This document shows positions 1,703-59,642 of a stretch of DNA of 64,000 bases, one piece after another. The stretch's first letter is position 1. Every line of letters begins with the position of its first letter. Under the pieces are notes generated by a model, which was not told where the DNA came from, did not search any database, and saw nothing but the letters and a program-made list of their open reading frames with translations. A program made the translations under genes and the position numbers. Origin of the DNA: Escherichia coli (GTDB lineage Bacteria > Pseudomonadota > Gammaproteobacteria > Enterobacterales > Enterobacteriaceae); the NCBI RefSeq assembly GCF_030013595.1, contig NZ_CP122768.1; one strand, written 5' to 3'.

Positions 1703-2275
1703 ATGCGTGGATTACGTCCGGCATTATCGACATTTATCTTTCTGTTATTGATTACTGGCGGCGTTTACCCCCTGCTAACCACCGCGCTGGGGCAATGGTG
1801 GTTTCCCTGGCAGGCCAACGGTTCGTTGATTCGTGAAGGTGATACGGTGCGCGGTTCGGCATTAATTGGGCAGAATTTTACCGGCAACGGCTATTTTCAT
1901 GGTCGCCCGTCGGCAACGGCAGAAATGCCCTATAATCCACAGGCTTCTGGCGGGAGCAATTTGGCGGTCAGTAACCCTGAGCTGGATAAACTAATAGCCG
2001 CACGCGTTGCTGCATTACGGGCCGCTAACCCGGATGCCAGCGCGAGCGTTCCGGTTGAACTGGTGACGGCATCGGCAAGCGGGCTGGACAATAACATCAC
2101 CCCGCAAGCGGCAGCCTGGCAGATCCCACGCGTGGCGAAAGCGCGTAATCTCAGCGTTGAACAGCTCACGCAACTGATCGCAAAATACAGCCAACAACCG
2201 CTGGTGAAATATATCGGCCAGCCGGTCGTCAACATTGTCGAACTCAATCTGGCGCTGGATAAGCTTGATGAATAA
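1703..2275 (+). CDS. kdpC: K+-transporting ATPase subunit C (190 aa)
   Basis: ORF track 1679..2275; start placed at internal ATG 1703 ([15 protein letters not shown]...) by match to KdpC N-terminus; overlaps kdpB stop. Confidence 0.9.
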
Positions 2276-28749: not shown

Positions 28750-28826
28750 GGCTACGTAGCTCAGTTGGTTAGAGCACATCACTCATAATGATGGGGTCAC
28801 AGGTTCGAATCCCGTCGTAGCCACCA
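28750..28826 (+). tRNA. metT: tRNA-Met (elongator, anticodon CAU)
   Basis: 77-nt cloverleaf GGCTACGTAGCTCAGTTGG...CTCATAA...GGTTCGAATCC...GCCACCA with encoded CCA. Confidence 0.95.
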
Positions 28827-28835
28827 TCTTTTTTT

Positions 28836-28920
28836 GCGGGAGTGGCGAAATTGGTAGACGCACCAGATTTAGGTTCTGGCGCCGCAAGGTGTGCGAGTTC
28901 AAGTCTCGCCTCCCGCACCA
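28836..28920 (+). tRNA. leuW: tRNA-Leu (anticodon UAG)
   Basis: 85-nt long-variable-arm tRNA GCGGGAGTGGCGAAATTGGTAGACG...TTTAGG...CGCACCA. Confidence 0.93.
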
Positions 28921-28943
28921 TTCACCAGAAAGCGTTGTACGGA

Positions 28944-29018
28944 TGGGGTATCGCCAAGCGGTAAGGCACCGGTTTTTGATACCGGCATTCCCTGGTTCGA
29001 ATCCAGGTACCCCAGCCA
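28944..29018 (+). tRNA. glnU: tRNA-Gln (anticodon UUG)
   Basis: 75-nt TGGGGTATCGCCAAGCGGTAAGGCACCGGTTTTTGATACCGG...CCAGCCA. Confidence 0.93.
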
Positions 29019-29052
29019 TCTTCTTCGAGTAAGCGGTTCACCGCCCGGTTAT

Positions 29053-29127
29053 TGGGGTATCGCCAAGCGGTAAGGCACCGGTTTTTGATACCGGCATTCC
29101 CTGGTTCGAATCCAGGTACCCCAGCCA
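29053..29127 (+). tRNA. glnW: tRNA-Gln (anticodon UUG)
   Basis: Identical copy of the preceding Gln tRNA. Confidence 0.93.
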
Positions 29128-29142
29128 TCGAAGAAACAATCT

Positions 29143-29219
29143 GGCTACGTAGCTCAGTTGGTTAGAGCACATCACTCATAATGATGGGGTCACAGGTTCG
29201 AATCCCGTCGTAGCCACCA
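29143..29219 (+). tRNA. metU: tRNA-Met (elongator, anticodon CAU)
   Basis: Second copy of the metT sequence. Confidence 0.93.
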
Positions 29220-29267
29220 AATTCTGAATGTGTCGAATAAGTTCGGCAAATTCACAAACCAATTTGT

Positions 29268-29342
29268 TGGGGTATCGCCAAGCGGTAAGGCACCGGATTC
29301 TGATTCCGGCATTCCGAGGTTCGAATCCTCGTACCCCAGCCA
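29268..29342 (+). tRNA. glnV: tRNA-Gln (anticodon CUG)
   Basis: 75-nt Gln tRNA with anticodon loop GGATTCTGATTCC. Confidence 0.93.
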
Positions 29343-29379
29343 ATTTATTCAAGACGCTTACCTTGTAAGTGCACCCAGT

Positions 29380-29454
29380 TGGGGTATCGCCAAGCGGTAA
29401 GGCACCGGATTCTAATTCCGGCATTCCGAGGTTCGAATCCTCGTACCCCAGCCA
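29380..29454 (+). tRNA. glnX: tRNA-Gln with anticodon CUA: amber (UAG) suppressor allele, supE44-type
   Basis: Same sequence as the preceding Gln(CUG) gene except anticodon loop GGATTCTAATTCC; anticodon CTA at 29412-29414. Confidence 0.9.
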
Positions 29455-35002: not shown

Positions 35003-36541
35003 ATGGCTTTTGCCTCATTAATTGAACGCCAGCGCATTCGCCTGCTGCTGGCGTTATTATTCGGTGCCTGCGGAACGCTGGCCTTCTCTCCTTACGACGT
35101 CTGGCCTGCGGCGATTATTTCGCTGATGGGGCTTCAGGCGCTGACCTTTAACCGCCGTCCACTCCAGTCTGCCGCTATTGGCTTTTGCTGGGGATTTGGC
35201 CTCTTTGGCAGCGGTATTAACTGGGTCTATGTCAGCATCGCGACCTTTGGCGGAATGCCTGGCCCGGTTAACATCTTCCTGGTGGTACTGCTGGCGGCGT
35301 ATTTGTCGCTGTATACCGGATTATTTGCTGGCGTGCTGTCGCGTCTGTGGCCGAAAACCACCTGGCTGCGCGTGGCGATTGCCGCCCCTGCTCTCTGGCA
35401 AGTGACCGAGTTTCTGCGCGGTTGGGTGCTGACTGGTTTCCCGTGGTTACAGTTCGGCTATAGCCAGATTGATGGCCCGTTAAAAGGGCTGGCACCGATA
35501 ATGGGCGTGGAAGCCATTAACTTCCTGCTAATGATGGTTAGCGGCCTGCTGGCACTGGCGTTGGTCAAACGCAACTGGCGTCCGATGGTGGTGGCCGTCG
35601 TGCTGTTCGCCCTTCCCTTCCCGCTGCGTTACATCCAGTGGTTTACCCCGCAACCGGAGAAAACCATTCAGGTTTCGATGGTTCAGGGCGATATTCCGCA
35701 ATCGCTGAAGTGGGACGAAAGCCAGCTTCTTAATACGCTGAAAATTTATTACAACGCAACGGCACCGCTGATGGGCAAATCATCGTTGATTATCTGGCCG
35801 GAGTCGGCGATAACCGATCTGGAAATTAATCAGCAACCGTTCCTCAAAGCACTGGACGGTGAGTTGCGTGATAAAGGTAGCTCGCTGGTCACCGGGATTG
35901 TCGACGCGCGTCTCAATAAGCAGAACCGCTACGATACCTACAACACCATCATCACGCTGGGTAAAGGTGCGCCGTACAGCTACGAATCAGCCGATCGCTA
36001 TAACAAAAACCATCTGGTGCCGTTTGGCGAGTTTGTCCCGCTGGAGTCGATTCTGCGTCCGTTAGCACCGTTCTTTGATCTGCCGATGTCGTCGTTCAGC
36101 CGTGGGCCATATATCCAGCCGCCGCTGTCGGTGAATGGTATTGAGCTTACTGCGGCCATTTGCTATGAGATCATTCTCGGCGAGCAAGTGCGCGATAACT
36201 TCCGCCCGGATACCGACTACCTGCTGACTATCTCCAACGATGCGTGGTTTGGTAAATCTATTGGTCCATGGCAACACTTCCAGATGGCGCGAATGCGTGC
36301 GCTGGAGCTGGCGCGCCCACTGTTGCGCAGCACCAACAACGGCATTACGGCGGTGATTGGCCCGCAGGGTGAGATTCAGGCGATGATCCCGCAGTTCACC
36401 CGCGAGGTGTTAACCACTAACGTGACGCCGACTACCGGACTTACACCGTACGCACGTACCGGCAACTGGCCGCTGTGGGTGCTGACGGCACTGTTTGGTT
36501 TTGCTGCTGTGCTGATGAGCCTGCGTCAACGACGTAAATAA
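35003..36541 (+). CDS. lnt: Apolipoprotein N-acyltransferase Lnt (512 aa)
   Basis: ORF 35003..36541; N-terminal polytopic domain plus C-N hydrolase domain. Confidence 0.95.
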
Positions 36542-36584
36542 TCCCTTCTTATCGTGCCGGAATACATCCCGTATTTCGGCACGC

Positions 36585-36620
36585 TCACCGGATGCGGCAT
36601 CAGTGCGTTATCCGGATAAC
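36585..36620. repeat. REP-like palindrome downstream of lnt (preceded by a hairpin at 36553-36583)
   Basis: CCGGATGCGGCATCAGTGCGTTATCCGG; upstream hairpin GTGCCGGAATAC...GTATTTCGGCAC. Confidence 0.6.
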
Positions 36621-36640
36621 AAAATTCCCCTTTCCAACTT

Positions 36641-36656
36641 TGGCACATCTATTGCT
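36641..36656 (+). promoter_or_regulatory. Candidate sigma54 (-24/-12) promoter element upstream of gltI
   Basis: TGGCACatctaTTGCT fits TGGCAC-N5-TTGCW with correct GG-to-GC spacing. Confidence 0.5.
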
Positions 36657-36937
36657 TTGTTATACAAGGCAAAGCTTGAACCAGCATCAGTACAACCCGG
36701 TTGCACCACAGCAATCCACGGGTAGCACCAAAAGAGTGCATTTTAAGAATTTTGCTTCGGAATGGTGCGGCGCATCTCGCAAAAACAAACAATAAAACAG
36801 CAATATCTTTACATTTAGCCAAACTAAATGTTACCTAACAGGCACAACACTGCACAATAAAGTTGCAGACGATAACAACACAAACACTCACAACGGGTAT
36901 CCATGCGTTCTTAACGCAGAAGATAAAGGAGTTGGAT

Positions 36938-37846
36938 ATGCAATTACGTAAACCTGCCACAGCAATCCTCGCCCTAGCGCTTTCCGCAGGACTGGCACAG
37001 GCAGATGACGCCGCCCCGGCAGCGGGCAGTACGCTGGACAAAATCGCCAAAAACGGTGTGATTGTCGTCGGTCACCGTGAATCTTCAGTACCTTTCTCTT
37101 ATTACGACAATCAGCAAAAAGTGGTGGGTTACTCGCAGGATTACTCCAACGCCATTGTTGAAGCAGTGAAAAAGAAACTCAACAAACCGGACTTGCAGGT
37201 AAAACTGATTCCGATTACCTCACAAAACCGTATTCCACTGCTGCAAAACGGCACTTTCGATTTTGAATGTGGTTCTACCACCAACAACGTCGAACGCCAA
37301 AAACAGGCGGCTTTCTCTGACACTATTTTCGTGGTCGGTACGCGCCTGTTGACCAAAAAGGGTGGCGATATCAAAGATTTCGCCGATCTGAAAGGCAAAG
37401 CCGTAGTCGTCACTTCCGGCACTACCTCTGAAGTTTTGCTCAACAAACTGAATGAAGAGCAAAAAATGAATATGCGAATTATCAGCGCCAAAGATCACGG
37501 TGACTCTTTCCGTACCCTGGAAAGCGGTCGTGCCGTTGCCTTTATGATGGATGATGCTCTGCTGGCTGGTGAACGTGCGAAAGCGAGGAAACCAGACAAC
37601 TGGGAAATCGTCGGCAAGCCGCAGTCTCAGGAAGCCTACGGTTGCATGTTGCGTAAAGACGATCCGCAGTTCAAAAAGCTGATGGATGACACCATCGCGC
37701 AGGTGCAGACCTCCGGTGAAGCGGAAAAATGGTTTGATAAATGGTTCAAAAACCCAATTCCGCCGAAAAACCTGAACATGAATTTCGAACTGTCAGACGA
37801 AATGAAAGCACTGTTCAAAGAACCGAATGACAAGGCACTGAACTAA
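36938..37846 (+). CDS. gltI: Glutamate/aspartate periplasmic binding protein GltI (302 aa)
   Basis: ORF track 36863..37846; start at internal Met (MQLRKPATAILALALSAGLAQA signal peptide). Confidence 0.93.
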   Translation: MQLRKPATAILALALSAGLAQADDAAPAAGSTLDKIAKNGVIVVGHRESSVPFSYYDNQQKVVGYSQDYSNAIVEAVKKKLNKPDLQVKLIPITSQNRIPLLQNGTFDFECGSTTNNVERQKQAAFSDTIFVVGTRLLTKKGGDIKDFADLKGKAVVVTSGTTSEVLLNKLNEEQKMNMRIISAKDHGDSFRTLESGRAVAFMMDDALLAGERAKARKPDNWEIVGKPQSQEAYGCMLRKDDPQFKKLMDDTIAQVQTSGEAEKWFDKWFKNPIPPKNLNMNFELSDEMKALFKEPNDKALN

Positions 37847-37849
37847 TTA

Positions 37850-38002
37850 CAAGAACCAGGGGCGGAAATTCCAGCCCTCTCGATTGTTACGTAGCACGGA
37901 CAGACTATACGCCTGATGGTCGTTCCCCATCGGGCCTGAAAACCGCAATACGCTGGGTAACAATCTTCGAGGGTAGCAGTTAACGCTGCTACCCTCTTTT
38001 TT
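37850..38002 (+). ncRNA. sroC: sRNA SroC (gltI 3'UTR / gltI-gltJ intergenic), approximate 5' end
   Basis: 169-bp intergenic region ending in a strong intrinsic terminator (GAGGGTAGCAG-TTAACG-CTGCTACCCTC + TTTTTT at 37969-38002); location matches where SroC lies in K-12. Confidence 0.6.
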
Positions 38003-38015
38003 CTGGAGTAGATTT

Positions 38016-38756
38016 ATGTCTATAGACTGGAACTGGGGTATTTTTTTACAACAAGCCCCGTTCGGCAACACCACCTATCTTGGTTGGATCTGGAGTGGTT
38101 TTCAGGTGACGATCGCTTTGTCGATCTGCGCCTGGATTATCGCTTTCCTCGTCGGTTCATTTTTCGGCATTTTACGTACCGTTCCAAACCGTTTTCTCTC
38201 CGGTCTGGGTACGTTGTATGTCGAACTGTTCCGCAACGTGCCGTTGATTGTGCAATTCTTTACCTGGTATCTGGTGATCCCGGAGCTGTTGCCGGAGAAA
38301 ATCGGCATGTGGTTTAAGGCCGAGCTGGATCCCAATATTCAGTTTTTCCTTTCATCCATGCTTTGCCTGGGGCTGTTTACCGCCGCCCGTGTTTGCGAAC
38401 AGGTACGCGCCGCGATTCAGTCGTTGCCGCGTGGGCAAAAGAATGCCGCGCTGGCAATGGGGCTGACGCTACCGCAGGCTTATCGCTACGTACTGCTGCC
38501 TAATGCTTATCGCGTTATCGTCCCGCCGATGACTTCCGAGATGATGAACCTGGTGAAAAACTCCGCCATCGCCTCGACTATCGGTCTGGTGGATATGGCA
38601 GCGCAGGCCGGTAAATTGCTTGATTACTCAGCCCACGCCTGGGAGTCGTTTACCGCCATCACGCTGGCGTATGTATTGATTAACGCTTTTATCATGCTGG
38701 TGATGACGCTGGTTGAACGTAAAGTTCGCCTGCCTGGCAACATGGGGGGCAAATAA
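38016..38756 (+). CDS. gltJ: Glutamate/aspartate ABC transporter permease GltJ (246 aa)
   Basis: ORF 38016..38756; polar amino acid ABC permease. Confidence 0.93.
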
Positions 38757-39430
38757 TGTACGAGTTTGACTGGAGTTCCATTGTCCCTTCCCTGCCATAT
38801 CTGCTCGACGGGCTGGTGATCACGCTGAAAATCACCGTCACAGCAGTCGTGATTGGTATTTTGTGGGGCACCATGCTGGCGGTGATGCGCTTATCCAGCT
38901 TCGCGCCTGTTGCGTGGTTTGCCAAAGCCTACGTTAACGTGTTCCGCTCGATTCCTTTAGTTATGGTTTTGCTGTGGTTTTACCTGATTGTGCCGGGTTT
39001 TCTGCAAAACGTGCTGGGATTATCGCCAAAAAATGATATCCGTTTAATTTCGGCAATGGTGGCGTTTTCGATGTTTGAAGCGGCCTACTATTCAGAGATT
39101 ATCCGTGCCGGTATTCAAAGTATTTCCCGTGGTCAGTCGAGCGCCGCGCTGGCGTTGGGGATGACTCACTGGCAGTCGATGAAACTGATTATTCTGCCGC
39201 AGGCTTTCCGCGCGATGGTGCCGCTGCTGCTCACTCAGGGCATCGTACTGTTCCAGGATACCTCACTGGTGTATGTGTTATCTCTGGCCGATTTCTTCCG
39301 TACCGCTTCAACCATTGGTGAGCGTGATGGTACGCAGGTCGAGATGATCCTGTTTGCCGGATTTGTTTATTTCGTTATTAGCCTTAGCGCGTCGTTGTTG
39401 GTCAGCTACTTGAAAAGAAGGACAGCTTAA
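38756..39430 (+). CDS. gltK: Glutamate/aspartate ABC transporter permease GltK (224 aa)
   Basis: ORF overlapping gltJ stop; permease with EAA loop. Confidence 0.93.
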
Positions 39431-40155
39431 TGATTACCCTGAAAAATGTTTCAAAATGGTATGGTCACTTTCAGGTGCTGACCGACTGCTCAACCGAAGT
39501 GAAAAAAGGCGAAGTGGTGGTGGTTTGCGGCCCGTCTGGTTCCGGCAAATCAACGCTGATTAAAACCGTCAACGGCCTCGAACCGGTGCAGCAAGGTGAA
39601 ATTACCGTCGATGGCATCGTGGTTAACGATAAGAAAACCGATCTGGCAAAGCTGCGTTCCCGCGTCGGGATGGTATTCCAGCATTTCGAGCTGTTCCCTC
39701 ATCTGTCGATTATCGAAAACCTGACCCTGGCGCAGGTGAAAGTGCTTAAACGCGATAAAGCGCCGGCTCGTGAAAAAGCATTGAAATTGCTGGAGCGCGT
39801 GGGACTTTCCGCACATGCCAATAAATTTCCGGCGCAGCTTTCCGGCGGTCAGCAACAGCGTGTGGCGATCGCTCGCGCATTGTGTATGGATCCTATTGCC
39901 ATGCTGTTCGACGAACCGACATCGGCGCTGGATCCGGAGATGATCAACGAAGTGCTGGACGTAATGGTCGAACTGGCGAACGAAGGAATGACCATGATGG
40001 TGGTGACCCACGAAATGGGCTTTGCCCGTAAAGTGGCGAATCGGGTGATCTTTATGGACGAGGGTAAAATTGTCGAAGACTCGCCGAAAGACGCTTTCTT
40101 CGATGATCCGAAATCGGACCGCGCAAAAGACTTCCTCGCGAAAATCCTGCATTAA
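39430..40155 (+). CDS. gltL: Glutamate/aspartate ABC transporter ATPase GltL (241 aa)
   Basis: Walker [10 protein letters not shown], signature LSGGQQQR, Walker [12 protein letters not shown]. Confidence 0.95.
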
Positions 40156-40272
40156 TCACTCTGGCGCGCATACCCAAGTGCGCGCCATCTCACGCTTTAT
40201 CGTTTCGCCCCTCGTATCTGTTACATCCTGGCGTTACCCTTGTCGCAAAGAAGCACACAACAAGGAGCAACA

Positions 40273-41208
40273 ATGGCACTGCCAATTCTGTTAGATTGCG
40301 ACCCTGGTCATGATGACGCTATCGCAATAGTTCTCGCCCTCGCCTCACCAGAGCTTGATGTCAAAGCAATTACGTCTTCCGCCGGAAACCAGACACCAGA
40401 GAAAACCTTACGCAATGTTCTGCGTATGCTGACCTTGCTTAATCGCACCGATATTCCGGTGGCAGGCGGCGCGGTAAAACCGTTAATGCGTGAGTTGATT
40501 ATCGCGGACAATGTGCACGGCGAAAGCGGTCTCGACGGCCCGGCATTACCGGAACCGACGTTCGCACCGCAAAACTGTACGGCGGTGGAGCTGATGGCGA
40601 AAACGCTGCGCGAAAGTGCGGAACCTGTCACGATTGTGTCTACCGGACCGCAAACTAACGTTGCCTTGCTGCTCAATAGCCATCCGGAACTGCATAGCAA
40701 AATTGCTCGTATCGTGATTATGGGCGGCGCAATGGGGCTTGGTAACTGGACGCCTGCGGCTGAATTTAATATTTACGTTGACCCGGAAGCGGCAGAAATT
40801 GTCTTCCAGTCAGGGATCCCGGTGGTGATGGCCGGTCTGGATGTTACTCACAAAGCACAAATTCACGTTGAGGACACCGAGCGTTTCCGCGCGATTGGCA
40901 ACCCTGTTTCAACCATTGTTGCCGAACTGCTGGATTTCTTCCTCGAATATCATAAAGACGAAAAATGGGGCTTTGTCGGCGCACCGCTGCATGACCCATG
41001 CACCATCGCCTGGCTGTTAAAACCGGAGTTGTTTACCACTGTTGAGCGCTGGGTTGGCGTGGAAACACAAGGGAAATATACCCAGGGTATGACGGTTGTT
41101 GATTATTATTATCTGACCGGCAATAAACCGAATGCCTCTGTAATGGTCGATGTTGATCGTCAGGGCTTTGTTGATTTACTGGCTGATCGTCTGAAATTTT
41201 ACGCTTAA
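40273..41208 (+). CDS. rihA: Pyrimidine-specific ribonucleoside hydrolase RihA (311 aa)
   Basis: ORF track 40240..41208; start at internal Met ([18 protein letters not shown], nucleoside hydrolase DxDxxxDD motif). Confidence 0.93.
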
Positions 41209-41214
41209 TCACTC

Positions 41215-41239
41215 GCCGGATGACATCACGCCATCCGGC
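41215..41239. terminator. Hairpin between convergent rihA and ybeL
   Basis: GCCGGATG-loop-CATCCGGC; no strong T tract. Confidence 0.4.
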
Positions 41240-59205: not shown

Positions 59206-59211
59206 AGACCA

Positions 59212-59240
59212 AAAAAAACCCGCTGATTAAGCGGGTTTTG
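59212..59240. terminator. Bidirectional terminator between crcB and cspE
   Basis: AAAACCCGCT-GATTA-AGCGGGTTTT hairpin. Confidence 0.75.
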
Positions 59241-59258
59241 AATTCTTGCTGACGTATC

Positions 59259-59468
59259 TTACAGAGCGATTACGTTTGCAGCAGAAGGGCCTTTGGCACC
59301 GTTAGTGATTTCGAACTCTACGCGCTGACCTTCAGCAAGAGTTTTAAAACCATTAGTCTGGATTGCAGAGAAGTGTACGAACACGTCTTTGCTGCCGTCT
59401 TCCGGAGTAATGAAACCGAATCCTTTGGACTCATTAAACCACTTAACGTTACCTTTAATCTTAGACAT
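59259..59468 (-). CDS. cspE: Cold-shock-like protein CspE (69 aa)
   Basis: ORF track 59259..59552; start at [20 protein letters not shown] (RNP1 motif). Confidence 0.95.
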
Positions 59469-59642
59469 CAAAATTACCTTTACATGAAAAATAGACACAA
59501 ATGCTGTGTCGGTTACCAGTACACCAATTGTGGTACGCTTTGTCCAGTGCAACTTTACTAAAAAGTGATAAAAGTCGCGTTATTTTTGATGTTAATTATT
59601 TTACTCATTGATTTTAAAGAGTTTACTAAAATTTCATTTGTC

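What the first reader, a model, noticed from the sequence alone, without database searches (positions are those of the whole stretch)
37850..38002. Structured gltI-gltJ intergenic region ending in a strong terminator: probable sRNA SroC
The 169-bp spacer between gltI and gltJ ends in an 11-bp GC-rich stem (37969-37996) followed by six T residues, immediately before the gltJ RBS. This is where the 3'UTR-derived sRNA SroC (a sponge of GcvB) lies in K-12. The terminator must be partly read through for gltJKL expression, so it acts as an internal attenuation point.
Basis: partly seen in the sequence, partly recalled or inferred. Interest (0 to 1): 0.35.

Follow-up and report, generated by a model that had tools for sequence, protein, structure and literature searches.

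The report
SroC small RNA in gltI–gltJ spacer
This is the well-studied E. coli small RNA SroC, cut from the tail of the gltI message, which binds the regulator RNA GcvB and triggers its destruction; the sequence is identical to the K-12 reference, so the finding is correct but ordinary.

Summary
The gltI stop is at 37844-37846 and the gltJ ATG at 38016, leaving a 169-bp spacer. It ends in an 11-12-bp stem (37969-37996), six T (37997-38002) and the gltJ RBS (38005-38008).

Rfam sroC (RF00369) matches 37842-38004 full length at 174.8 bits (threshold 45). The stretch is 100% identical to the annotated K-12 sroC gene (b4763) and is present in 5421 of 5426 complete E. coli genomes. Both published GcvB-pairing sites are intact and 14 nt apart, as in the primary paper. 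An alignment of 48 enterobacterial sequences shows strong compensatory variation in the SroC stems, an invariant BS2 loop and a terminator in every one.

The "partly read-through terminator" idea is already in print: Miyakoshi et al. 2015 call it a "leaky Rho-independent terminator".

A regulated anti-terminator, a REP element and an antisense ORF were each tested and found no support.

Verdict: already known, low interest.

The parts
36874..36883 (+). C/A-rich element AACAACACAA in the gltI 5' leader, complementary to the GcvB R1 seed (GcvB 73-82). It makes the parental mRNA itself a GcvB target.
   Evidence: sequence; 10-nt perfect complement to K-12 GcvB. gltI as a GcvB target: PMC4474525 abstract. 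Site assignment here is by complementarity only.
36938..37846 (+). [quoted passage not shown]
   Evidence: NF008063, 667 bits, protein residues 26-327 of the longer mechanical ORF; K-12 gltI is 909 nt; translation ends ...NDKALN*.
37842..38004 (+). SroC sRNA (163 nt by the K-12 annotation). The 5' end lies inside the last gltI codons and the 3' end in the terminator T-run.
   Evidence: RF00369, 174.8 bits, full length; 100% identical to b4763. The 5' end may be 37839 if the Salmonella numbering (+3) reflects the true end.
37859..37878 (+). SL1 hairpin (SroC 18-37).
   Evidence: MFE; a hairpin forms at this place in all 48 aligned sequences with different stem sequences (GGGGCGG/CUGCCCU, GGGAGG/CCUCCC, GGGGCAA/UUGCCCU).
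37882..37965 (+). Large SL2 domain (SroC 41-124): closing helix GAUUG/CAAUC, internal helices, and tip helix 37911-37919/37927-37935.
   Evidence: 97.5% of cells paired; 132 cells with compensatory change against 43 +/- 5 in shuffles and at most 34 in slid controls.
37898..37905 (+). BS1, GGACAGAC (SroC 57-64). Pairs with GcvB 156-163 (R3/SL4).
   Evidence: perfect 8-nt complement to K-12 GcvB; C60 opposite G160 corresponds to the paper's C63/G160; probing and compensatory mutants in Salmonella.
37920..37926 (+). BS2, UCGUUCC (SroC 79-85), which is exactly the apical loop of SL2. Pairs with GcvB 13-19 (SL1).
   Evidence: 7-nt complement; C84 opposite G14 corresponds to the paper's C87/G14; 14 nt from BS1 as published; the part not forced by my search pattern (37923-37929, TTCCCCA) is invariant in all 48 aligned sequences.
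37969..37996 (+). Intrinsic terminator hairpin (SroC 128-155).
   Evidence: -21.3 kcal/mol; the base GGGUAGC/GCUACCC is invariant and 100% paired in all 48 aligned sequences, while the apical part varies in length.
37997..38002 (+). T6 tract: the termination site, and by general sRNA knowledge the Hfq-binding U-tail.
   Evidence: Most other genera have T8.
38005..38008 (+). gltJ Shine-Dalgarno GGAG, 8 nt after the stem. It is not sequestered by the hairpin.
   Evidence: conserved in the alignment.
38016..40155 (+). gltJ (38016-38756), gltK (38756-39430) and gltL (39430-40155). These distal genes can only be expressed by read-through of the terminator.
   Evidence: No promoter-like site was found between gltI and gltJ, but that scan is insensitive.

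Best explanation
The region is the sroC gene of E. coli. It is a 3'-UTR-derived, Hfq-dependent small RNA embedded in the gltIJKL glutamate/aspartate ABC-transporter operon. The proposed mechanism has five steps.

(1) Transcription starts at the single gltI promoter. This is published and the promoter was not located here.

(2) At the intrinsic terminator 37969-38002, some polymerases stop and give a monocistronic gltI-SroC RNA. The rest read through into gltJKL, so the binding protein is made in excess over the membrane components. The terminator is shown at sequence level here. Leakiness is published for Salmonella and inferred for this strain.

(3) RNase E, guided by Hfq and a 5'-monophosphate, trims the gltI RNA down to the very stable, roughly 160-nt SroC. 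Its 5' end lies in the last gltI codons, about 37842. This is published and not testable here.

(4) SroC pairs with GcvB through two short sites: BS1 (37898-37905) with GcvB 156-163, and BS2 (37920-37926) with GcvB 13-19. This triggers RNase E decay of GcvB. The sites are shown intact here and the mechanism is published.

(5) Loss of GcvB de-represses the amino-acid and peptide transport regulon. That regulon includes gltI itself, whose leader carries a C/A-rich GcvB site (36874-36883), giving a feed-forward loop.

Published additional targets are the MgrR sRNA and the fliE/flhBAE mRNAs.
For: Rfam RF00369 full-length hit at 174.8 bits against a gathering score of 45, E = 7e-37. 191/191 identity to K-12, where the stretch is annotated ncRNA sroC b4763. 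Present in 5421/5426 complete E. coli genomes, at 99% identity or more in 5249. Operon context lnt-gltI-[sroC]-gltJKL-rihA. Fold z-score -7.35.

BS1 and BS2 are perfectly complementary to K-12 GcvB and 14 nt apart. Five positions probed or mutated in the paper (G61, C63, G65, G84, C87) all map with one consistent +3 offset (paper).

In the 48-sequence alignment of enterobacterial genera (Escherichia, Salmonella, Citrobacter, Kluyvera, Raoultella, Klebsiella, Kosakonia, Enterobacter and others), the stems covary: 132 compensatory cells against 43 in shuffles. The BS2 loop is invariant, and terminator + T-run + gltJ RBS is always present.

Literature:
- RNase E/Hfq biogenesis, compensatory mutants, a growth phenotype on peptides, and functional E. 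coli homologues (PMC4474525).
- E. coli RIL-seq, with the GcvB-SroC hybrid at about 70% of GcvB chimeras in stationary phase (PMC9299463).
- In E. coli, GcvB half-life is 3.8 min with SroC against >16 min without, and SroC half-life is >16 min (PMC10250213).
- Review (PMC9438474).
Against: Nothing substantive. Caveats:
- No expression data exist for this particular strain.
- gcvB is not in the window, so pairing was tested against the K-12 copy.
- Short complementarity is not evidence on its own. 21% of shuffled SroC sequences also show an 8-mer plus a separate 7-mer complement to GcvB, so the pairing claim rests on published genetics.
- The comparative set was retrieved with a pattern that forced SroC 52-68 and 76-81. 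Conservation of BS1 is therefore circular, and more distant homologues (e.g. Yersinia) were not sampled.
- The exact 5' end is uncertain by 3 nt, and the extent of read-through in E. coli is unmeasured here.
Confidence: 0.97

Rival explanations
1. A regulated terminator/anti-terminator switch. The conserved CCCUCUCG (SroC 34-41) would compete with the terminator's 3' arm for GAGGG/CGAGG (127-132), so that some signal or factor tunes how much SroC versus gltJKL is made. This would be an extra layer on top of SroC, not a replacement for it.
For: CCCUC occurs twice, at SroC 34-38 and in the terminator 3' arm at 151-155. The Rfam consensus structure pairs UCUCG 37-41 with CGAGG 127-131. The predicted fold of the 140-nt transcription intermediate uses that pairing. 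Both blocks are almost invariant in the 48-sequence alignment although they lie outside the GcvB sites. Miyakoshi et al. raise this possibility themselves.
Against: The alternative adds only about 2.5 kcal/mol, against about 20 kcal/mol for the terminator, and its equilibrium probability is 0.0. No pair of the alternative helix shows a compensatory change, and its central pair (U39-A129) is broken in 9 of 47 distinct sequences without compensation. CCCU 34-37 is also used by SL1, which forms in every sequence. No ligand or factor is known.
Confidence: 0.08
2. A purely cis-acting intercistronic element: a terminator or RNA-stabilising hairpin that sets GltI:GltJKL stoichiometry, with the small RNA being an inert decay product.
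For: The terminator, T-run and adjacent gltJ RBS are the most conserved architecture. [quoted passage not shown]
Against: Published compensatory base-pair mutants, chromosomal sroC** point mutants that stabilise GcvB and slow growth on peptides, and E. coli RIL-seq chimeras show a trans function. An invariant 7-nt loop over a covarying stem is not expected of a mere stabiliser. The cis role is real but not the whole story.
Confidence: 0.02
3. The SL2 tip is a REP (repetitive extragenic palindrome) element, as EcoCyc is reported to annotate for SroC.
For: PMC12306157 states that SroC is one of three EcoCyc sRNAs 'containing REP elements'. The left arm GCCTGATG (37911-37918) equals the REP arm GCCKGATG, and the right arm CATCGGGCCTG resembles CATCMGGCCTAC.
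Against: The canonical REP tail ATCMGGCCTAC is absent here and anywhere in the window. The exact 28-mer occurs only once in the window. The K-12 RefSeq record lists no repeat feature under sroC. In other genera the stem covaries to GUCAGGUGG/CCACCUGGC or GGUGGCUGG/CCAGCCGCC, which are unlike REP, while the loop stays invariant. The REP consensus I used is from my own knowledge.
Confidence: 0.03
4. The spacer encodes a small protein on either strand, for example the mechanical 75-aa antisense ORF at 37847-38074.
For: the ORF listing reports the antisense ORF.
Against: No Pfam match. The antisense strand is stop-free across the stretch in only 3 of the 48 aligned sequences, and all three sense frames contain stops. 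Indels of 7 nt occur between genera. Nothing is annotated there in K-12.
Confidence: 0.005

Closest known systems
SroC sRNA (Rfam RF00369; E. coli K-12 b4763; Vogel et al. 2003; Miyakoshi, Chao & Vogel 2015, PMC4474525)
   Same: Everything testable matches: sequence (100% to K-12), structure model, position between gltI and gltJ, both GcvB-pairing sites, and the terminator.
   Different: Nothing within the RNA. The host strain differs from MG1655 nearby, lacking IS5D upstream of gltI. Relative to Salmonella, where most mechanism work was done, the Escherichia terminator stem is longer (-21.3 against -13.1 kcal/mol) with T6 instead of T8.
Other RNase E-processed 3'-UTR sRNAs (CpxQ, SdhX, NarS, MalH, OppZ; review PMC9438474)
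   Same: Made by mRNA processing. They share the host mRNA's terminator, depend on Hfq and carry a 5'-monophosphate.
   Different: SroC sits inside an operon at a leaky internal terminator rather than at the operon's end. Its main target is another sRNA (sponge action) rather than an mRNA.
Intercistronic stabilisers or terminators after the binding-protein gene of ABC-transporter operons (e.g. REP hairpins in malE-malF)
   Same: Placed directly after the first gene, the periplasmic binding protein. The result is excess binding protein over membrane components.
   Different: The paper states that here the monocistronic RNA arises by termination at a leaky intrinsic terminator, not by 3'-exonuclease protection. 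The released fragment also has a trans-acting function.

Membership tests
SroC (Rfam RF00369) | Sequence-plus-structure match to the family covariance model above the curated gathering score | tested here: met
   174.8 bits against gathering score 45, E = 7.4e-37, model positions 1-163 of 163, not truncated.
SroC (Rfam RF00369) | Location: from the last codons of gltI (ybeJ) through the gltI-gltJ spacer, on the same strand as the operon | tested here: met
   gltI stop 37844-37846, SroC 37842-38004, gltJ ATG 38016. The K-12 annotation has the same layout. All 48 loci from other species keep a gltJ-like start just downstream; gltI upstream was confirmed by tblastn in the five loci checked.
SroC (Rfam RF00369) | Orthology to the experimentally defined K-12 gene b4763 | tested here: met
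   191/191 identical columns.
SroC (Rfam RF00369) | Rho-independent terminator forming the 3' end | tested here: met
   11-12-bp stem plus T6; present in all 48 aligned sequences. Actual termination was not measured.
SroC (Rfam RF00369) | Two GcvB-pairing sites (BS1 and BS2), 14 nt apart, complementary to GcvB R3/SL4 and SL1 | tested here: met
   SroC 57-64 with GcvB 156-163, and SroC 79-85 with GcvB 13-19. The mutated positions of the paper align. Complementarity alone is not statistically significant (21% of shuffles), so function rests on PMC4474525.
SroC (Rfam RF00369) | Conserved secondary structure (SL1, large SL2, terminator) supported by covariation | tested here: met
   97.5% paired; 10 pairs and 132 cells with compensatory change; shuffles and slid controls are far lower.
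SroC (Rfam RF00369) | Stable, roughly 160-nt, 5'-monophosphorylated, Hfq-bound RNA made by RNase E processing; no promoter of its own | not testable with these tools
   Published for E. coli K-12 and Salmonella. The consensus promoter scan found nothing in 36400-40600, but it also missed the gltI promoter, so it is uninformative.
Regulated transcription attenuator (terminator/anti-terminator switch) | A mutually exclusive alternative helix that is thermodynamically competitive and evolutionarily maintained | tested here: not met
   The alternative helix gains only about 2.5 kcal/mol and has probability 0.0 at equilibrium. It shows no compensatory change, and its central pair is broken in 9 of 47 sequences. 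Kinetic (co-transcriptional) effects could not be tested.
REP element | Imperfect palindrome of about 35 nt with conserved arms GCCKGATGCG...CTTATCMGGCCTAC, repeated through the genome | tested here: not met
   Only the 8-nt left arm matches and the tail motif is absent. The sequence is unique in the window. K-12 annotates no repeat there. The stem covaries away from the motif in other genera. The consensus used is from my own knowledge.

The most novel reading that the evidence does not exclude
The near-invariant blocks outside the GcvB contact sites are CCCUCUCGAUUG (37875-37886) and AAUCUUCGAGGGUAGC (37962-37977). They might form a cis element, or the binding site of a trans factor, that sets the ratio of termination (SroC plus gltI mRNA) to read-through (gltJKL), and so indirectly sets GcvB levels. 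The authors of the primary paper raised this question and, as far as the searchable literature shows, it is still open. A related point is that the Escherichia lineage has lengthened the terminator stem by about 8 kcal/mol relative to Salmonella, so the ratio may differ between the two model organisms.
Probability: 0.08. Interest if true: 0.4.

Novelty: already known. Interest (0 to 1): 0.05.

Why it matters
As it stands this is a correct re-identification of a textbook sRNA. SroC links one amino-acid transporter mRNA to the whole GcvB regulon. It is a model case of a 3'-UTR-derived RNA sponge, but the biology was established in 2003-2015 and has been confirmed in E. coli since. The only open aspect touched here is what determines the leakiness of the internal terminator. 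My comparative and thermodynamic tests give no support for a simple anti-terminator, which narrows that question slightly but does not answer it.

Tried and rejected
- **Full-length RNAduplex of SroC against GcvB.** It gave a meaningless -78 kcal/mol all-along duplex because intramolecular structure is ignored. I replaced it with an exact-complement search plus a shuffle control.
- **Shuffle control on BS1/BS2.** Complementarity is not significant by itself, so I do not count it as independent evidence. Two further 7-8-nt complements (SroC 101-108 with GcvB 189-196; SroC 146-152 with GcvB 114-120) lie inside stable stems and are treated as chance.
- **Anti-terminator hypothesis.** No covariation and weak energetics.
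- **REP reading.** Only a partial arm matches.
- **Antisense 75-aa ORF.** Not conserved and no family match.
- **Promoter scan.** Zero sites in 4.2 kb, including upstream of gltI, so it says nothing about an internal promoter.
- **Literature search for E. coli Term-seq or read-through data at sroC.** Nothing specific found in the searchable library.
- **Not run.** The large protein-database and structure tools were not used because the question is about an RNA already identified.

Full report
**1. The observation**

Reading 37700-38120 shows the gltI reading frame ending ...AAG GCA CTG AAC TAA, with the stop at 37844-37846. The next long ORF starts with ATG at 38016.

Its last part is GAGGGTAGCAG (37969-37979), TTAACG, CTGCTACCCTC (37986-37996), TTTTTT (37997-38002), CT, GGAG (38005-38008), then seven bases and ATG. 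A consensus terminator scan of 36400-40600 ranks this site first, with 12 pairs of which 7 are G-C. The hairpin alone is predicted at -21.3 kcal/mol and is paired with probability about 1.0 in a 260-nt context.

The whole 162-nt stretch folds at -66.3 kcal/mol, against -40.3 +/- 3.5 for 200 dinucleotide-preserving shuffles (z = -7.35). So "structured" is justified, not only "ends in a terminator".

NCBIfam identifies the flanking proteins as GltI (667 bits), a GltJ-type permease, GltK (479 bits) and the GltL-type ATPase, with Lnt upstream and RihA downstream.

**2. Identity**

A scan of the whole window against Rfam gives sroC (RF00369) at 37842-38004 on the + strand. The score is 174.8 bits against a gathering score of 45, E = 7e-37, covering model positions 1-163 of 163 without truncation.

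The K-12 MG1655 RefSeq record annotates ncRNA sroC (b4763, "small regulatory RNA SroC") at 686681-686843. It lies between gltJ and gltI and overlaps the last 5 nt of gltI. An alignment of window 37830-38020 with that stretch is identical in all 191 columns.

The 174-nt query occurs in 5421 of 5426 complete E. coli genomes, at 99% identity or more in 5249 of them. The correct coordinates are therefore 37842-38004. [quoted passage not shown]

**3. Mechanism: what is published and what I could verify in the sequence**

Miyakoshi, Chao and Vogel (PMC4474525) showed the following in Salmonella:
- SroC is released from the gltI mRNA by RNase E in a 5'-monophosphate- and Hfq-dependent way.
- It pairs with GcvB at two short sites, BS1 and BS2, which are 14 nt apart in SroC but far apart in GcvB.
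- Compensatory mutations (SroC C63G/C87G with GcvB G160C/G14C) abolish and then restore regulation.
- Chromosomal point mutants stabilise GcvB, lower OppA and GltI expression, and slow growth on peptides.
- The E. coli homologues are functional in their two-plasmid assay.

I fetched K-12 gcvB and searched for exact complements. SroC 57-64, GGACAGAC (window 37898-37905), pairs with GcvB 156-163. SroC 79-85, UCGUUCC (window 37920-37926), pairs with GcvB 13-19. The two sites are exactly 14 nt apart. The five positions named in the paper (G61, C63, G65, G84, C87) all fall on the right letters with a single offset of +3 relative to K-12 numbering. BS2 is exactly the 7-nt apical loop of the predicted SL2.

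A control is needed here. In 5000 shuffles of SroC, 21% also had an 8-mer plus a separate 7-mer complement to GcvB. The complementarity is therefore consistent with the published mechanism but is not independent evidence for it.

E. coli-specific experimental support comes from two sources. In RIL-seq, the GcvB-SroC hybrid rises to about 70% of GcvB chimeras in stationary phase (PMC9299463). In decay measurements in E. coli, GcvB half-life is 3.8 min with SroC and >16 min without, and SroC half-life is >16 min (PMC10250213).

The other half of the published feed-forward loop is also visible in the window. The gltI leader carries AACAACACAA (36874-36883), which is perfectly complementary to the GcvB R1 seed.

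A review adds MgrR sponging and repression of fliE/flhBAE as further activities (PMC9438474).

**4. Comparative evidence**

One exact-pattern scan of species-representative genomes returned 48 loci. They come from Escherichia, Salmonella, Citrobacter, Kluyvera, Raoultella, Klebsiella, Kosakonia, Enterobacter, Lelliottia, Phytobacter, Pluralibacter and Huaxiibacter. The pattern forced SroC 52-68 and 76-81, so conservation of those columns is circular.

Forty-seven of these loci, all different in sequence, were aligned with the window (48 sequences). The remaining locus was cut at its contig end and left out. Outside the forced columns, the following are invariant or nearly so:
- the rest of the BS2 loop (TTCCCCA, 37923-37929);
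- CCCTCTCGATTG (37875-37886);
- AATCTTCGAGGGTAG (37962-37976);
- GCTACCC plus the T-run;
- the gltJ RBS and start.

RNAalifold recovers the SL2 tip helix, the internal helices, the closing helix and the terminator. Counting pairs on a structure I named gives 97.5% of cells paired and 132 cells with changes on both sides. That compares with 43 +/- 5 in column shuffles and at most 34 when partners are slid by 1-3 columns. SL1 was lost in the alignment because of gaps, but folding it species by species gives a hairpin everywhere, with stems such as GGGGCGG/CUGCCCU, GGGAGG/CCUCCC and GGGGCAA/UUGCCCU.

The terminator never shows a compensatory change. Its base is invariant, so its conservation says it is needed but gives no covariation evidence.

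Its apical part differs between lineages. Escherichia and Kluyvera have longer stems (-19.7 to -21.3 kcal/mol), whereas Salmonella and most other genera have GAGGGUAGCGCUGCUACCCUU (-13.1 kcal/mol) followed by T8.

**5. The terminator as an "attenuation point"**

The paper already states that one promoter makes both the full-length gltIJKL mRNA and the short gltI mRNA.

I tested the obvious structural version of a regulated switch. CCCUC occurs both at SroC 34-38 and as the terminator's 3' arm (151-155). The Rfam consensus pairs UCUCG 37-41 with CGAGG 127-131. In a 140-nt transcription intermediate, that pairing is the predicted minimum-energy fold.

Against this, the pairing adds only about 2.5 kcal/mol, compared with about 20 for the terminator, and has zero equilibrium probability in the full RNA. 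None of its pairs shows a compensatory change, and its central pair is broken in 9 of 47 distinct sequences. I conclude there is no support for a simple anti-terminator. A kinetic or factor-dependent effect cannot be excluded.

Because leakiness was measured in Salmonella and the Escherichia hairpin is predicted to be about 8 kcal/mol stronger, the actual read-through fraction in E. coli remains an inference. I found no open-access paper that reports it.

**6. Other readings considered**

- REP element. A 2025 paper reports that EcoCyc lists SroC as containing a REP element. The SL2 tip shares the 8-nt arm GCCTGATG with REPs. However, the diagnostic tail is absent, the sequence is unique in the window, K-12 annotates no repeat there, and the stem covaries away from the REP motif in other genera.
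- Antisense ORF. The mechanical 75-aa antisense ORF has no Pfam match and is interrupted in 45 of the 48 aligned sequences. All three sense frames also carry stops.

**7. Verdict**

The finding is a correct identification of a known, well-characterised sRNA gene, identical to the reference allele. Novelty: already known. Interest is low. The only residual open question, what sets the termination/read-through ratio, was raised by the original authors, and my tests do not support the simplest answer.

Noticed in passing
window 36542-36937: The lnt-gltI intergenic region is 396 bp and lacks the IS5D insertion (insH3) that K-12 MG1655 carries at this place. The K-12 gap equals 396 bp plus the 1195-bp IS5 plus a 4-bp duplication. 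So the window comes from an E. coli that is identical to K-12 at sroC but is not MG1655-like here.
   Followed up: partly
window 59211-59569 (-): Rfam 'cspA thermoregulator' (RF01766) hit at 123 bits, with many non-canonical pairs in the 5'-UTR part. The embedded CDS reads [19 protein letters not shown]..., which I recognise from memory as CspE-like. The hit is probably driven by cold-shock-protein CDS homology rather than showing a cspA-type thermosensor.
   Followed up: no
window 28750-29451 (+): A cluster of seven tRNA genes (Rfam tRNA hits of 57-71 bits) about 8.5 kb upstream of sroC. It is consistent with the metT-leuW-glnUW-metU-glnVX cluster of K-12 (identity from memory; anticodons not checked).
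   Followed up: no
L022:2028-2153 (-), L026:523-650 (+), L030 about 1770-1905 (-): In Citrobacter braakii and two Phytobacter species, an insert of about 127 nt separates the gltI stop codon from SroC SL1. It contains ...CTTACATGAGTAAGTAACCGGG..., which resembles an ERIC/IRU repeat (from my own knowledge, not tested). It replaces the leader from which RNase E makes the SroC 5' end in E. coli and Salmonella, so SroC biogenesis may differ there.
   Followed up: partly
window 37969-38002, versus L003-L050: The terminator differs by lineage. Escherichia has a 12-bp stem (-21.3 kcal/mol) and T6, because a C interrupts the T-run. One E. coli representative (L007) and E. albertii (L004) carry single-base variants (T8, or a stem mismatch giving -14.6). 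Kluyvera lengthened the stem with a different apical sequence. Salmonella and most other genera have a 9-bp stem (-13.1 kcal/mol) and T8.
   Followed up: yes
window 41215-41239: A perfect palindrome, GCCGGATGACATCACGCCATCCGGC, lies 7 nt after the rihA stop (41208). It has REP-like arms and may be a bidirectional terminator or a REP-like element.
   Followed up: no
window 36560-36620: Two palindromes directly after the lnt stop: GTGCCGGAATACATCCCGTATTTCGGCAC and a REP-like CCGGATGCGGCATCAGTGCGTTATCCGG. This is close to where IS5 is inserted in K-12.
   Followed up: no
(E. coli genomes): Two of the 5431 sroC matches lie on plasmids, some genomes carry two copies, and five complete genomes have no match.
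   Followed up: no
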